A stretch of DNA of 64,000 nt, from NCBI GenBank assembly GCA_951406725.2, contig OX597826.1, forward strand, positions 51,274,001 through 51,338,000, written 5' to 3'. Below the pieces are notes generated by a model that did not search any database, was not told the origin of the DNA, and saw only the letters and a program-made list of their open reading frames with translations. Position numbers and translations under genes: made by a program. How positions within the stretch are numbered: the stretch's first letter is position 1; each line of letters begins with the position of its first letter. Shown here piece by piece: positions 11,980 to 55,803 of the stretch. This stretch comes from Octopus vulgaris. Its lineage: Eukaryota.

Positions 11980-12454
11980 TGCAGCATAAAAGCGTCTAGC
12001 TCTTATTTCTAGCAATGTAGGTGTCTGTAACACCCTCTGTCATATTTAACGACGGTTATAGTTCTTGTTGATACACATTGGCTTACTGCTGCCAAAATAA
12101 ATTATTTGTATACACAGTGATTCACTAAATCATCCACAGATTTCTATTACGTAGAAATATATGCTGGGGGTGATTGTCGTCTGGAATCAGCCGAGTCGGG
12201 CCGATCTTACTGAAGAGACTACGGCTAAAGCCGAAACTGACCGATCAGTTTGGGAATATCTCGACCGCTGCTTTTCGGGCGTTTACGGTCCCTGTCAGCT
12301 TGTATGTATACAATTATGTTCTTTGACTGCAGCATTAGAGTGTTTAGCTCTTATTTATAGCAATGTAGGTGTTTGTGACACCCTTAGTTGTATTTAATGA
12401 TGGTTTTAGTACTTGTTGGTACACATTTGCTTACTGCTGCTTAAATAAATTATA
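11980..12454 (+). mobile_element. Hammerhead-containing retrozyme/Penelope pLTR-like unit, family 2 (348-nt period)
   Basis: About 127-bp direct repeat (11980-12106 and 12328-12454) bracketing a hammerhead motif; ends at a TA/TG microsatellite. Confidence 0.7.
12205..12255 (+). ncRNA. Type I hammerhead ribozyme motif
   Basis: TCTTA-CTGAAGA-(gactac)GGC taaa GCC-GAAA-CTGA ccga TCAG-TT-TGGGA. Stems I, II and III can form. The triplet is GUU and there is a 6-nt insertion before stem II. Confidence 0.65.
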
Positions 12455-12499
12455 CATATATATGTGTGTGTGTGTGTGTATGAATATATATATATATAA

Positions 12500-12730
12500 A
12501 GGCGGCGAGCTGGCAGAAACGTTAGCGCCCCGGGTGAAATGCTTAGCGGTATTTCGTCTGACGTTATGTTCTGAGTTCAAATTCCGCCGAGGTAGACTTT
12601 GCCTTTCATCCTTTCGGGGTAGATAAATAAAGCACCAGTTTCGCACTGGGGTCGATGTAATCGACTTAATCCATTTGTCTGTCCTTGTTTGTCCCCTCTA
12701 TATTTAGCCCCTTGTGGGTAGTAAAGAAAT
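12500..12730 (+). mobile_element. SINE family B, full length
   Basis: GGCGGCGAGCTGGCAGAAACG...GGGTAGTAAAGAAATA. Confidence 0.92.
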
Positions 12731-12754
12731 ATATATATATATATTTATATATAC

Positions 12755-13134
12755 AGGCGTAGGAGTGGCTGTGTGGTAAGTAGCTTGCTTACGAACTACA
12801 TGGTTCTGGGTTCAGTCCCACTGCGTGGCACCTTGGGCAAGTGTCTTCTACTATAGCCTTAGGCCGACCAAAGCCTTGTGAGTGGATTTGGTAGACGGAA
12901 ACTGAAAGAAGCCCGTTGTATGTGTATATGTTTGTGTGTCTGTGTTTGTCCCCCCAACATCGCTTGACAACCGATGCTGGTGTGCTTACGTCCCCGTAAC
13001 TTAGCGGTTCGGCAAAAGAGACCGATAGAATAAGTACTAAGCTTACAAAGAATAAGTCTTGGGGTCGATTTGCTCGACTAAAGGCGGTGCTCCAGCATGG
13101 CCACAGTCAAATGAAACAAGTAAAAGAGTAAAAG
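12755..13134 (+). mobile_element. SINE family A, full length
   Basis: tRNA head, body and tail CGCTTGACAACCGATGCTGG...AAACAAGTAAAAGAG. Confidence 0.92.
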
Positions 13135-14087
13135 TGTATATATATATATATCATGTGCTGGCGTATCTCAGGCAACATGGATATGGTCTTGCATAGAAAG
13201 ACAACAGAGTAACGTCGTTAGTAGGAGAGGTTCGGAAGGTAAAAGAGAAAGGGAAAATATTGTATTTGAATGAATCAGGGGAAGTTAAGAGACGATAACA
13301 GAAGTTAAAAGTACTTATGAACCTTGCAAGAGTAGATGAAAAAGTAAATATTGAAAAAAAAAAAAAATGAGAAAATCTGAAAGGGTGAGTTTTTAATAGA
13401 CTTCATCAAACATCAAAGAACCCTCGTCATGTGACGGGTAACTAGAAGTATACTATTCCAATATGGCTAATATGAGGAAATTTGGAAAACACAATAATTA
13501 TAATCTTTTATCGATTTTTGGTGCTTCTACAAAGTGATGAAATGAATATTAATTTGCAAAAGAAAATATTACCTTGAAATAAAATTAAATTAATTAAAAC
13601 AAATTTATTTGTATAACTCCTTACTGTCATTTATTCTCTTTCTTCCTTCTCCCACCAAACCCTGTATGTTCACTCATCCCACACCTCTTATAGTAACTCT
13701 TTCTTGTTCTTTCTTTTCCTCTCTCTCTCTCCCACTTTCTCTATACTGTATAAAGCGTGGCTGGAAAAATAACCAGCCAGCCAACATTCATTTATTACTT
13801 CTCTCTCACGTCCTCTTATCTCTTTTACAGGGTGCCTGGCGCTACAAAATTACATTGCGATATGGCTTAAGGAAAAAATACTTCAGGTTTGCACGTCTAT
13901 GATGCAAAGTGTTCTAGCCAATACCAGTCGCCTTCATTTCCTGGTACAGCATGTATGGAGAAGTTTATTATCCACCGTGCGTTTCTCTTCTTTATACAGA
14001 GTTGATTCATATAGCAGCAGAAGATAAAGAAGAAAGAGAAATAAGTAGACATAGGAGGGAAAAACAGTAAAAGGGTAGGGTGGTGTA

Positions 14088-53021: not shown

Positions 53022-53240
53022 GACAGCGAGGTAGCAGAATCGTTAGCACGTCGGGCAAAATGCTCAGCGGCATTTCGTCTATATTTACGTTCTGAGTTCA
53101 AATTCCGCAGGGATCGACTCTGCCTTTCATCCTTTCGGGGTCGATAAAATGAGTACCAGTCAAGCACTGGGGTCGATATAATCGACTAGTCCCTCCAACG
53201 CAATATCAGGTCTTGGGCCTGTAGTGGGAAGAATTATTAT
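53022..53240 (+). mobile_element. SINE family B
   Basis: Head and core as in the copy at 1433. Confidence 0.88.
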
Positions 53241-54434
53241 TGAGTTGTCTTATTTTTACCACGTGCTTTTACTGCAATACCGGGCGCAGCTCTGTGTGCC
53301 TTGGGTATGTGCTGTGGTTTGTTTTAAAATTGTTATTTTCATTGAAAATGCTTTACGTACTATATGTGTGGTGCCTTATACTACTATTTTAATATGCTAT
53401 ATATAGTTTTTTAAGTCTTGGTGTTTTGGTTATGTGTTTGTCTATACGTTTTTAATCATACCTAATGCAACTATTATTATAGGGATTGTTTCTGTTTTTA
53501 GGCTTCACATTCGGCTTCACATTTGCAGATCTTTGTATTTTGATAGTTTCTCCATTTCTTTTAAAGAAACATTGTCATCTGTTGGTATTGATACATCGAT
53601 TAGAAGGTATTATTCTTCTTCTTGTTCTTCTTGTTCTTGTTCTTGTTCTTGTTCATGTTCTTGCTGTTGTTTTTGTTATTGTTGTTGTTGTTGTTGTTGT
53701 TCTTCTTCTTCTTCTTCTTCTTCTTCTTCTTCTTCTTATTATTATTATTATTATTAATATGCTAACTTTTCCTTTTTTAGTACAGACCTGTGGTATGTGT
53801 CACACTTACTTTAAAGGAAGAGATAAAAAGATTGAAGGGAGAGGTACAAAGAAAATGAGAGATACAAAGTGTTAAACAGAGGAGGTATAGTTGAAGCGAG
53901 AGAGAGGAAATGAGAGAGCCAATGAGTGGTGACTGAAATGAAAGTGGCGTTCCTTTGTTTTTAAATGTTTATCAGTATTTCCAGAGTATACTAATGCATA
54001 CAACGAAAGAAAAGTAGATACCTACCTATCTACCTACCTACCTACCTACCTACCTACCTACCTACCTACCTACCTACCTACCTACCTACCTACATACATA
54101 CATACATACATACATACATACATACATACATACATATAAATACACATTGTTAAATTAAAAGCAGGAGAGAGGAGAGACAGATAGGAAGTGATACAAAAAG
54201 AGAGAGAGAGAGAGAGAGAGAGAGAGTGAGAGAGACAGCGAGTGTTGACTAAAAGGAAGGTGGCGTTCCTTATTTTGATTTTAAATGTTTATCAGTGTTT
54301 TCAGAATAGACAGATACACATATCGAAAGTAATGTAGATACATAGGCACACAGACACATTATTATAACAAAGAAAAATAACTAGAGCAAATATTGGATGT
54401 CACTTCCACTTTTCATTACCGCACAAGGATAAAA

Positions 54435-54690
54435 TTAACTCGCAAGTGGCTGAGTACTCCACAGACATGCCTGCCATTAACGTAGTTCTCAGGGAGATTC
54501 AGGTTCACACAGAATGTGACAAAGCTGGCCCCTTTGAAATACGGGCACTACGCATCTTTGTCTGCTGAGTGCACTGCAGCAAGGTGAAGTAGAGTGCCTT
54601 GCTCAAGAACACAGCGCACCACCGGAAATCGTACTCATGATCTTACGATCGTGAGCTGATGCCCCTAACCACTGAGTCACGCACCTTCAC
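54435..54690 (-). mobile_element. tRNA-derived SINE with a D-like head and a different body
   Basis: Reverse complement GAAGGTGCGTGACTCAGTGGTTAG...GTTCTTGAGCAAGGCAC. Confidence 0.7.
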
Positions 54691-55295
54691 AATCTTAATC
54701 GTAGAGAAAAGGAGTGAAGCGATAGAGGCAGGAAAAGGAAAGCCTCAGTCATTTAAAAGGACAATTAGACTGAAATACGACCGATCTTTTCTAGATTCTT
54801 TACATTTAAGAATGAAGAAGAGTGAAAGTATTTCAGGTGTTTAGGTTTTCATTTTGGGAATTCTAGAAAGTTCAAGTGTTAGTTCTCTCTTCTTATTTCG
54901 ACCCCAGTACTTATTGGCGTTGTTTGATAATTCCTCATGTCTTTTAGTCGGGAGGAAAGACCATGATTTTTTTCAGGCACGTTTAACGTTTTCTATACAA
55001 ACTACAAAGAAGCCGCCTTCCCCTTTTTCATACAAAAACTAATGCAAATTATGAAAGGGGTATAGTTGTAAAAAGAACTCAGAAAAATGGGTAATACTCC
55101 CTACAAAATGGGTGGGGGATAAAAGTCAGCAACAGGTGGCTATACACGAAATTCAGCCCTATGTCTTATAGAGTGTCTTGTACTATAGCCTCCAGCCGAC
55201 CAATGCCTTGTGAGTGGATTTGGTAGAGAAGGTGAAAGAAGCCCGTCGTATATATATATATATATATATATATATATATATATATATATATATAT

Positions 55296-55803
55296 AATCA
55301 TATCAAAGGGAAATGGAAATGAATTAAAATTTACATTTCCAGTGGTCTAACGTGTAAAAATTTAGTCCAAAAGACTATGTATTAGTCATAAGATACAGTG
55401 TACATTTAAACACATGAGGAATGCACTCATAGGATTCAAAACGCTAGAAAGAACAGCTAGGTTCTATAACCACAAAATTAGGGATAAAATTCGACAGGAA
55501 CGAAATGAAAAATAAAAACATTTTACCATCTAGTTTCCTGGACCAATTGGTTTCTGATTTTAGTTTAGCGAGTAAATGAATAACATATACACTCGCCAGG
55601 TGCAATCGTCTTCAGCAGGAACACGTAGGGTTAAACGTATACACACGAGGCGATCAAACTACGTGGCCCATGTTTACACATTCTAACTTTTTTAACATCT
55701 ACTGCGCAGCCGCAGTCCTTCGCCAGCAATAAAAAAATGCCAACTTTTAAAAACCGAAAATTATCCAAAAACTTACAATATTTAATCATATCAAAGAGGA
55801 ATG
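55296..55803 (-). mobile_element. Hammerhead retrozyme-like unit, family 3 (488-nt period), adjacent to (TA)n
   Basis: Terminal redundancy AATCATATCAAAG.G.AATG at 55296 and 55784, with a central hammerhead. Confidence 0.7.
55535..55621 (-). ncRNA. Type I hammerhead ribozyme with intact core and extended stem II
   Basis: Reverse complement TTCCTG-CTGAAGA-C GATT...TGGCGAGT..ACTCGCTA...AATC A-GAAA-CCAATTGG-TC-CAGGAA. GUC cleavage predicted between 55541 and 55540. Confidence 0.82.

What the first reader, a model, noticed from the sequence alone, without database searches (positions are those of the whole stretch)
11980..55803. High density of hammerhead-ribozyme retroelements (retrozyme/Penelope pLTR-like): 9 motifs, about 5 sequence families in 64 kb
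Seen: CUGANGA/GAAA/UH cores with pairable stems at 12205(+), 17099(-), 17288(+), 22175(+), 24214(+), 33724(-, truncated), 34050(+), 38647(+) and 55535(-). They lie in non-coding units, mostly abutting TA/CA microsatellites, and three have measurable periods of 348, 355 and 488 nt. Established: Penelope-like elements carry minimal type I hammerheads in their pLTRs, and non-LTR retrozymes are tandem non-coding hammerhead units that yield circular RNAs and are thought to use Penelope enzymes. Inference: this genome hosts a large, diverse population of such elements, possibly producing self-cleaved monomeric or circular RNAs. I cannot tell whether these families are already catalogued.
Basis: partly seen in the sequence, partly recalled or inferred. 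Interest (0 to 1): 0.9.

Follow-up and report, generated by a model that had tools for sequence, protein, structure and literature searches.

The report
Rewired hammerhead ribozyme in Penelope repeats
The nine hammerhead-ribozyme motifs are real and sit in small Penelope-like jumping repeats that are ordinary for this (likely octopus) genome, but a tenth repeat in the same stretch belongs to a family whose hammerhead parts are wired in a rearranged, knotted order; it likely cuts itself (untested) and would account for the ribozyme reported missing from some Naiad retroelements.

Summary
All nine motifs lie where stated, and the periods of 348, 355 and 488 nt hold. They belong to seven repeat families (five lineages) of non-coding Penelope-like elements: 5'-truncated tandems, inverted pieces, tails, (TA)n targets. 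One family is 76-77% like the pLTR of an intact autonomous element. Only 4 of 9 window copies keep a complete fold, and the density is that of the whole genome. This part is a known kind (non-LTR retrozymes).

Its family (5,173 candidates) and four relatives, one 97-100% identical across chromosomes, carry all hammerhead blocks in the non-circular order site-GAAA-CUGANGA. Helix II pairs with an upstream strand and an extra helix closes the motif between A9 and 10.1. The helices covary between families; 0 hits in 40 Mb of shuffled DNA. Published Naiad consensi, said to lack hammerheads, show this fold (7 of 45 ends read by eye) or type CSG (6 of 45). Non-circular hammerheads were reported almost only from metatranscriptomes and metagenomes. 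Cleavage, expression and the mobilising enzyme are untested.

The parts
11980..12453 (+). Family A element: 1.36 units of a 348-nt repeat; type I hammerhead at 12204-12255 with a 5-bp helix III; this copy has drifted (GUU site, wobbles in helix I)
   Evidence: (1,221 candidates)
16931..17499 (.). Family B element: full unit (+) with an inverted 5'-truncated copy (-); hammerheads at 17099-17143(-, degraded) and 17287-17331(+, intact); C.A mismatch at the base of helix II, palindromic helix III
   Evidence: (2,758 candidates)
21772..22388 (+). Family C element: inverted piece and 55-nt tail, truncated copy, 355-nt unit; hammerhead at 22175-22219 with core A6 replaced by G
   Evidence: (2,007 candidates)
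24100..24420 (+). Family D element (ends approximate); hammerhead at 24213-24260 lacking 3 nt of helix II that other copies have
   Evidence: (972 candidates)
33724..34295 (.). Family G element, related to B and C: inverted piece with a truncated hammerhead at 33723-33758(-) and a unit with hammerhead 34049-34093(+), core CCGAUGA
   Evidence: (880 candidates)
38613..38783 (+). Family E element: 5'-truncated piece of a 219-nt unit; minimal Penelope-type hammerhead at 38645-38680; 76-77% like the pLTR of an autonomous element with a 1,008-aa frame
   Evidence: (481 candidates, best 40 at 94-100%)
48319..49081 (+).
   Evidence: (5,173 candidates)
48544..48620 (+). First, decayed copy of the permuted hammerhead: U16.1 at 48556, GAAA block mutated at 48574, CUGAUGA at 48603; upstream helices deleted
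48832..48955 (+). Second, decayed copy of the permuted hammerhead: helix IV 5' strand 48832-48837, hairpin V 48838-48871, helix II 5' strand from 48872, U16.1 48895, site nucleotide 48896, GAAA 48913, CUGAUGA 48942; helices II, III and IV carry mismatches in this copy
55297..55795 (-). Family F element: 488-nt unit ending at (TA)n; intact hammerhead at 55535-55621 with a 54-nt helix II domain, C.A mismatch at its base and palindromic helix III
   Evidence: (1,973 candidates)

Best explanation
The window holds copies of eight families of short non-coding repeats with Penelope-like anatomy, likely copied by the enzymes of autonomous Penelope-like elements, and one of them (family H) carries the hammerhead blocks in a rearranged order that is predicted to fold into a multi-pseudoknotted ribozyme and likely cuts the RNA. 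Mechanism, inferred: a tandem or read-through transcript is cut once per unit by the hammerhead (by two motifs acting as a dimer where helix III is a short palindrome), giving unit-length linear or circular RNA; a Penelope RT and GIY-YIG endonuclease nick (TA)n DNA and copy more than one unit from a fixed 3' end, which leaves a full unit, a 5'-truncated tandem copy, often an inverted piece and a short tail. In family H and its relatives the 5'-to-3' order is IV5', hairpin or linker V, II5', distal III, III3'-U-H-I3', II3'-GAAA-III5', I5'-CUGANGA-IV3'. Helix III is a long hairpin whose loop supplies one strand each of helices I and II as two pseudoknots, and the chain opens in an extra helix between A9 and position 10.1. 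Predicted cuts: after AUA in H (48896 in the window copy) and after GUC in H2. The same wiring at the 3' ends of octopus and cnidarian Naiad consensi makes a Naiad origin of this group likely. Shown: sequence, anatomy, pairing and covariation. Inferred: folding, cleavage, circles, the enzyme used.
For: Anatomy: (TA)4 within 40 nt of an end in A 15/20, B 11/20, C 11/30, D 9/15, E 18/20, F 18/20 loci against 0.15 background; tandem and inverted pieces in every family. H and H2 have fixed 3' ends and ragged 5' ends; H2 ends at one base in 23 of 30 loci and carries a 34-36-nt tail in 6. Ordinary hammerheads: 46 copies of B, C and G pair at 82.9% (slid controls 19-49%), all 6 pairs of proximal helix I change on both sides. 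Partner: E matches the pLTR of an intact element at 76-77% over 104 nt, E about 1e-16, and shares its 3' terminus. Permuted form: helices I-III pair at 92.3% over 40 copies, 10 of 17 pairs change on both sides, slid controls 37-61%. Upstream helix II is Watson-Crick in 0.76 (H, 28 copies) and 1.00 (H2, 6 copies) of cells against 0.30 and 0.33 for the downstream alternative; helices II, IV and V together 0.91 and 1.00 against 0.19-0.44 slid. The five-helix descriptor finds 29 of 30 H2 loci, 4 of 30 older H loci, two further families of different sequence in the 800-kb sample (L211, L224) and 0 hits in 40 Mb shuffled; in L211 and L224 no downstream helix II can form. RNAfold recovers IV, V and III as the nested scaffold of one H copy and IV and V of two H2 copies. 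Naiad consensi of Craig et al. (PMC8557442, File S5; read by eye): 7 of 45 ends show this order with an upstream helix II partner, 6 of 45 show complete type CSG.
Against: No cleavage or expression data. Both window copies of H are decayed and 26 of 30 H loci fail the five-helix descriptor. Covariation comes from about five families, so few independent events; the shuffle control of the pair counter ignores relatedness. The B/C/G rows were picked for an intact core, so core invariance there is by construction. The single H3 copy (L079) fails upstream helix II at its first pair and can form the downstream one. Helix V is weak or replaced by a linker in L211 and L224(-), and helix IV there has more than one register. 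In H2 the 3' strand of helix II can also pair with the end of the CUGANGA core (-6.3 kcal/mol), which would block it; RNAfold's best nested folds of H2 do not contain helix III as drawn. Naiad helix IV is imperfect in the two octopus consensi, 32 of 45 Naiad ends show no complete hammerhead in the part displayed, and none of these was run through a program. No autonomous element with an H-type, A, B, C, D, F or G pLTR was found; Craig et al. call cephalopod Naiads long inactive while H2 is very young. Minimal Penelope hammerheads cleave poorly in vitro (PMC4209133).
Confidence: 0.75

Rival explanations
1. The H group is a plain type-SGC hammerhead as in Eckert et al.: helix II forms with the strand right after CUGANGA, and the upstream helices are an inactive or folding-intermediate state.
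For: Four downstream pairs with a G10.1-C11.1 base and the extra A typical of Penelope hammerheads can form in H, H2 and H3; a strict SGC test passes 30 of 30 H2 and 4 of 30 H loci against 1 hit in 32 Mb shuffled.
Against: Half of those pairs are G-U; the upstream pairing is longer, Watson-Crick and covaries; the downstream strand has a better partner in helix IV; in L211 and L224 no downstream helix II exists, nor by eye in the coral and octopus Naiad ends.
Confidence: 0.12
2. The permuted motif is a conserved RNA structure derived from a hammerhead that no longer cuts, and serves as the recognition signal for the Penelope RT or as a terminator.
For: It lies about 130-240 nt from the fixed 3' end; a break between A9 and 10.1 has no tested precedent that I found; Cervera and de la Pena leave functions other than cleavage open.
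Against: All catalytic nucleotides and an NUH site are kept in five families whose helices differ and in the Naiad ends read by eye; a pure binding signal would not need them.
Confidence: 0.1
3. The motifs are chance matches in microsatellite-rich DNA, or the repeats are ordinary SINEs or satellites.
For: Rfam finds none of them; two SGC-like hits (L211:9465, L399) were chance products of a SINE and of a repeat junction.
Against: Counts far above shuffles, covariation, Penelope anatomy, homology of E to an autonomous pLTR.
Confidence: 0.03

Closest known systems
Non-LTR retrozymes of animals (Cervera and de la Pena 2020, PMC7229834; Li et al. 2026, bioRxiv 10.64898/2026.07.22.740005)
   Same: Short non-coding units with one type I hammerhead each, in tandem or single, related to Penelope pLTRs; a mismatch at the base of helix II is known from axolotl HHR_Amex2.
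   Different: No cephalopod mention in the passages searched; most copies here are 1-2 units with inverted pieces in (TA)n; three related families and family F have a fixed C.A, A.A or A.G mismatch at 10.1-11.1; units reach 488 and 870-890 nt; the H group has no type I hammerhead.
Minimal hammerheads of Penelope-like elements (Cervera and de la Pena 2014, PMC4209133)
   Same: Family E: extra nucleotide between 9 and 10.1, G10.1-C11.1, no real helix III, pLTR position.
   Different: Family E is a stand-alone 219-nt tandem unit without a reading frame; the other families have longer helices I and III.
Type-SGC and type-CSG non-circularly permuted hammerheads (Eckert et al. 2023, PMC10085705)
   Same: Same cyclic order of blocks, two pseudoknots, one strand of helix I joined by a short linker to one strand of helix II.
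   Different: [quoted passage not shown] Here the motif is in a high-copy animal retroelement, helix II pairs with an upstream strand, an extra helix closes the motif between A9 and 10.1, helix III is extended past a conserved 5x5 purine-rich loop, and no 'interaction' helix was seen.
Naiad Penelope-like elements (Craig et al. 2021, PMC8557442)
   Same: (TA)n targets, partial tandems, inverted copies, 30-40-nt tails; the octopus and coral consensi carry the same permuted wiring at the 3' end (read by eye).
   Different: The H group codes for nothing and shows no sequence match to a Naiad that I could test; the paper reports Naiads as lacking canonical hammerheads and marks only 'core' or 'half core' cases.

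Membership tests
Non-LTR retrozyme | Short non-coding unit with one type I hammerhead | tested here: met
   Families A-G: units of 219-488 nt, no frame tied to them
Non-LTR retrozyme | Head-to-tail tandem copies | tested here: met
   Three-unit tandems in L023 (C) and L090 (E), partial tandems in all families; a young seven-unit relative of B/C/G in L188
Non-LTR retrozyme | Self-cleavage and circular RNA | not testable with these tools
   Only contigs of runs guessed to be RNA were offered
Non-autonomous Penelope-like element | 5'-truncated tandem copy, inverted copy, tail, microsatellite target | tested here: met
   against the description in PMC8557442
Non-autonomous Penelope-like element | Homology to the pLTR of an autonomous element | tested here: inconclusive
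   Met for E; not found for the other seven families against three autonomous families and 30 further endonuclease loci
Type-SGC hammerhead (Eckert 2023) | Blocks in the order site, GAAA, CUGANGA with all core nucleotides | tested here: met
Type-SGC hammerhead (Eckert 2023) | Helix II strand directly 3' of CUGANGA (undivided block C) | tested here: not met
   Upstream partner is better in H and H2 and the only one in L211 and L224; so it works like SGC but is not filed as SGC
Type-SGC hammerhead (Eckert 2023) | Interaction helix joining the far sides of helices I and II | tested here: inconclusive
   Looked for by eye; no conserved one seen
Type-SGC hammerhead (Eckert 2023) | Site-specific cleavage | not testable with these tools
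   needs in vitro transcription
Naiad clade | N-terminal GIY-YIG, CxC linker and C-terminal RT | tested here: not met
   H and H2 units carry no such frame; they can only be non-autonomous dependants
Naiad clade | (TA)n target and 3' RNA motif like octopus Naiads | tested here: inconclusive
   Target met; same wiring by eye; three 12-letter H/H2 words are absent from the supplement; no alignment could be run

The most novel reading that the evidence does not exclude
Animal genomes carry thousands of active hammerheads in a layout outside the six listed permutations: non-circular order with the chain opened inside the core between A9 and 10.1. This form and type CSG are the ribozymes of many Naiad retroelements, so Naiads do not lack hammerheads, and a very young non-coding family (H2) is spreading with it in octopus.
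Probability: 0.65. Interest if true: 0.9.

Novelty: new variant of a known kind. Interest (0 to 1): 0.8.

Why it matters
Non-circular hammerhead permutations were reported from unassigned metatranscriptome and metagenome contigs, type CSG from only two sequences. Finding them in high-copy animal retroelements gives them a host, a role and many covarying examples. It offers an answer to why descriptor searches found no hammerhead in Naiads, and shows that block C of the core can be split by an extra helix, which a single transcription assay can test. The rest of the finding shows that this genome holds on the order of 100,000 intact ordinary hammerhead loci (32 loci in 800 kb, extrapolated) that Rfam does not detect.

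Tried and rejected
Rfam: 0 hits at gathering score in the window and in 12 loci; the E-value list showed only microsatellite matches among the 150 of 259 rows printed. RNA: no RNA holder listed for family F; four runs laid were contigs, three only guessed to be RNA, and cannot show strand, ends or circles; joints going back 488 were in the DNA-like run. Autonomous partners: family B next to a young element in L126 is a local duplication at insertion; family E next to a 955-aa frame in L264 only shares a (TA)n tract; the frames between H2 tandems on C21 belong to a LINE-like element in a duplicated block. SGC-like hits at L211:9465 and L399 were dropped as a SINE-derived match and a repeat junction. 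The metagenome pattern scan gave 10 matches, none with the helices by eye. My first reading of H as plain SGC was replaced after the Naiad ends were read. The six-order scan undercounts type I because it bars overlapping palindromic helix III. Lunse et al. 2017 could not be read, so whether the 10.1-11.1 mismatch variants are described there is open. A search for the purine-rich loop gave one listing; calling it loop-E-like is recalled. Forgia et al. 2023 had none of six terms on variant hammerheads.
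Full report
Setting. The window is G000:C13:51274001-51338000 of a 2.8-Gb assembly in 227 contigs, 35% G+C and dense in microsatellites. I infer an octopus from these features and from recalled SINE sequence; no call names it.

Check of the observation. All nine motifs lie at the stated places. 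Periods of 348 and 355 nt are in the window, and 488 is confirmed by abutting copies and contig joints. A type I descriptor that allows an extra or mismatched base at the foot of helix II gives 4 hits in the window against 0.22 in shuffles, and 25 hits at score 11 or more in 400 kb of other blocks against 0.6; a second 400 kb gives 19. Merged into loci this is 32 in 800 kb against 3 in the 64-kb window, so the window is typical. The blocks were chosen by me at round coordinates. Only 4 of the 9 window copies pass; the rest are decayed or cut. Rfam sees none.

The nine motifs. Own-genome searches give seven families with 481 to 2,758 first-look candidates each (lower bounds, 40 scored each). 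Their loci show a full unit, a 5'-truncated tandem copy, inverted pieces, a tail and (TA)n flanks, the structure that Craig et al. give for Penelope-like insertions (PMC8557442, passages). Families B, C and G are related. Over 46 of their hammerheads, picked for an intact core, 82.9% of cells pair, all six pairs of proximal helix I change on both sides, and the 10.1-11.1 position is unpaired in 39 of 46. Family F has the same basal mismatch; a young seven-unit relative in L188 has G-C there. The genome holds young autonomous elements: a 717-aa family with 150 of 150 scored matches identical over 165 aa, a 1,008-aa family and one of about 960 aa, each with a hammerhead in its pLTR. Calling the first and third Nematis-like and the second Neptune-like rests on recalled motifs; no tree was built, and Pfam gave only a sub-threshold GIY-YIG match. 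Family E is 76-77% like the pLTR of the 1,008-aa family over 104 nt and occurs as frame-free 219-nt tandems. This is the known picture of non-LTR retrozymes as Penelope dependants (PMC7229834, passages; bioRxiv 10.64898/2026.07.22.740005, parts 1-2 of 5 and passages; PMC4209133, parts 1-2 of 4; PMC6765202, passages).

The tenth element. A 339-nt repeat at 48544-49072 has CUGAUGA with no GAAA behind it. Its family H has 5,173 candidates at 86-89%, a fixed 3' end and ragged 5' ends. The alignment shows GAAA 29 nt upstream of the core and, further upstream, a strand that pairs both with the bases after GAAA and with the bases before the core: the order site, GAAA, CUGANGA. A second family H2, found in flanks, has 2,576 candidates, 97-100% identity between chromosomes and tandems of 867-888 nt, with different helix sequences at the same spacing. 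Over 40 copies helices I-III pair at 92.3%, with 10 of 17 pairs changed on both sides.

Refining the fold. Eckert et al. (PMC10085705; part 1, sections 7, 13, 15, first part of 18, and passages) describe this order as type SGC and found none in genomes of known organisms. Craig et al. report that Naiads lack canonical hammerheads and mark some as 'half core', among them an octopus Naiad. I read the last 330-420 nt of 45 of the 54 Naiad consensi in their supplement by eye. Seven (Amil, Aacu, Anas, 3_Chem, 2_Movir, Obim, Ovul) show site-GAAA-CUGANGA with full helices I and III and with the strand before GAAA matching an upstream strand; Bfor is a weak eighth. Six nematode ends (1-3_Nbra, Hcon, Hpol, Asuum) show complete type CSG with an interaction helix. 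The other 32, Bfor among them, show no complete hammerhead in the part displayed. Tested on my own loci, the upstream helix II is Watson-Crick in 0.76 (H) and 1.00 (H2) of cells against 0.30 and 0.33 downstream, the strand after the core closes an outer helix IV, and a hairpin V lies between IV and II (28 of the H and 6 of the H2 stretches, those in a fixed register). Slid controls fall to 0.19-0.44. A five-helix descriptor finds 29 of 30 H2 loci, 4 of 30 H loci, and two more families in the 800-kb sample (L211, two copies 843 nt apart; L224), with 0 hits in 40 Mb shuffled; a variant of the L211 family with a compensated helix III lies on the other strand of L224. In these no downstream helix II can form (helix I of L224(+) was misparsed there and is 6 bp). 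Against: the one H3 copy favours the downstream pairing, helix V is weak in the L211 family, H2 has a competing pairing with the core, and both window copies are decayed.

How it likely works. The hammerhead cuts tandem or read-through RNA into units; Penelope enzymes insert them at (TA)n by target-primed copying from a fixed 3' end. In the H group helix III forms a long hairpin whose loop donates strands to helices I and II, and helix IV holds the core's 3' end next to helix II. Folding, cleavage, circles and the enzyme are inferred. H2 is very young although cephalopod Naiads are described as long inactive, so its driver is open.

Is it in print? Searches for 'type-SGC' with 'hammerhead' (one paper), 'hammerhead, non-circular, permutation' since 2023 (six listed), 'Naiad, hammerhead' (three listed), 'cephalopod, hammerhead ribozyme', 'Penelope, hammerhead, octopus' and 'pseudoknotted hammerhead, Penelope' (none) gave no report of a non-circular hammerhead in an animal genome or in Naiads. 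A 2026 octopus repeat annotation has no mention of ribozymes in its main text (PMC13282606, passages); PMC13725137 only cites Eckert et al. (passages). Subscription papers, Lunse et al. 2017, Dfam, Repbase and the supplements of Eckert et al. and of the bioRxiv preprint were not seen and may bear on this. Earlier notes of this scan mention a rearranged hammerhead at a Penelope tail and phage hammerheads opened inside the core; they are unchecked leads.

Verdict. The finding as written is correct and of a known kind (about 0.35 alone). The permuted family within its coordinates is a new variant of the hammerhead with strong comparative support and no functional test; interest 0.8.

Noticed in passing
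PMC8557442 File S5, nematode Naiad 3' ends: Six consensi hold complete type-CSG hammerheads with an interaction helix and different helix sequences; Eckert et al. had two CSG sequences. Read by eye only.
   Followed up: partly
PMC8557442 File S5, bivalve Naiad 3' ends: Clam and mussel ends carry a different conserved motif that recalls a twister ribozyme; oyster ends carry a third motif. Earlier scan notes report the twister.
   Followed up: no
L228, L229; A very young autonomous Penelope-like family (717-aa frame, 150 of 150 scored copies identical over 165 aa, 22,310 candidates) with a CCGANGA hammerhead that has an extra U before GAAA and an optional 70-nt tail.
   Followed up: partly
L263:1064-1571: pLTR of a 960-aa family with a hammerhead whose helix II domain is about 90 nt, beyond usual descriptors; several families have 45-90-nt helix II domains.
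   Followed up: partly
L230:5150-5320 (3' UTR of the 1,008-aa family): A G+C-rich, hairpin-rich island inside a long CA-rich 3' UTR; no Rfam hit.
   Followed up: no
L188:2090-4740: Young retrozyme array of five direct and two inverted 353-359-nt units, nearly identical, with a canonical hammerhead; related to families B, C and G.
   Followed up: partly
L126:1806-2706: A young element's insertion is accompanied by an inverted duplication of about 240 nt of the neighbouring family B copy, which suggests copying of target DNA during insertion.
   Followed up: partly
window 41052-41479, 46729-47040, 50589-50948, 47877-48178, 53911-54344, 39282-39505: Further inverted or direct repeats without a hammerhead core in the loci checked.
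   Followed up: partly
window 7971-8528, 9655-10089, 27796-28880: Fragments of an RTE-like LINE and of mariner-like transposases (names recalled).
   Followed up: no
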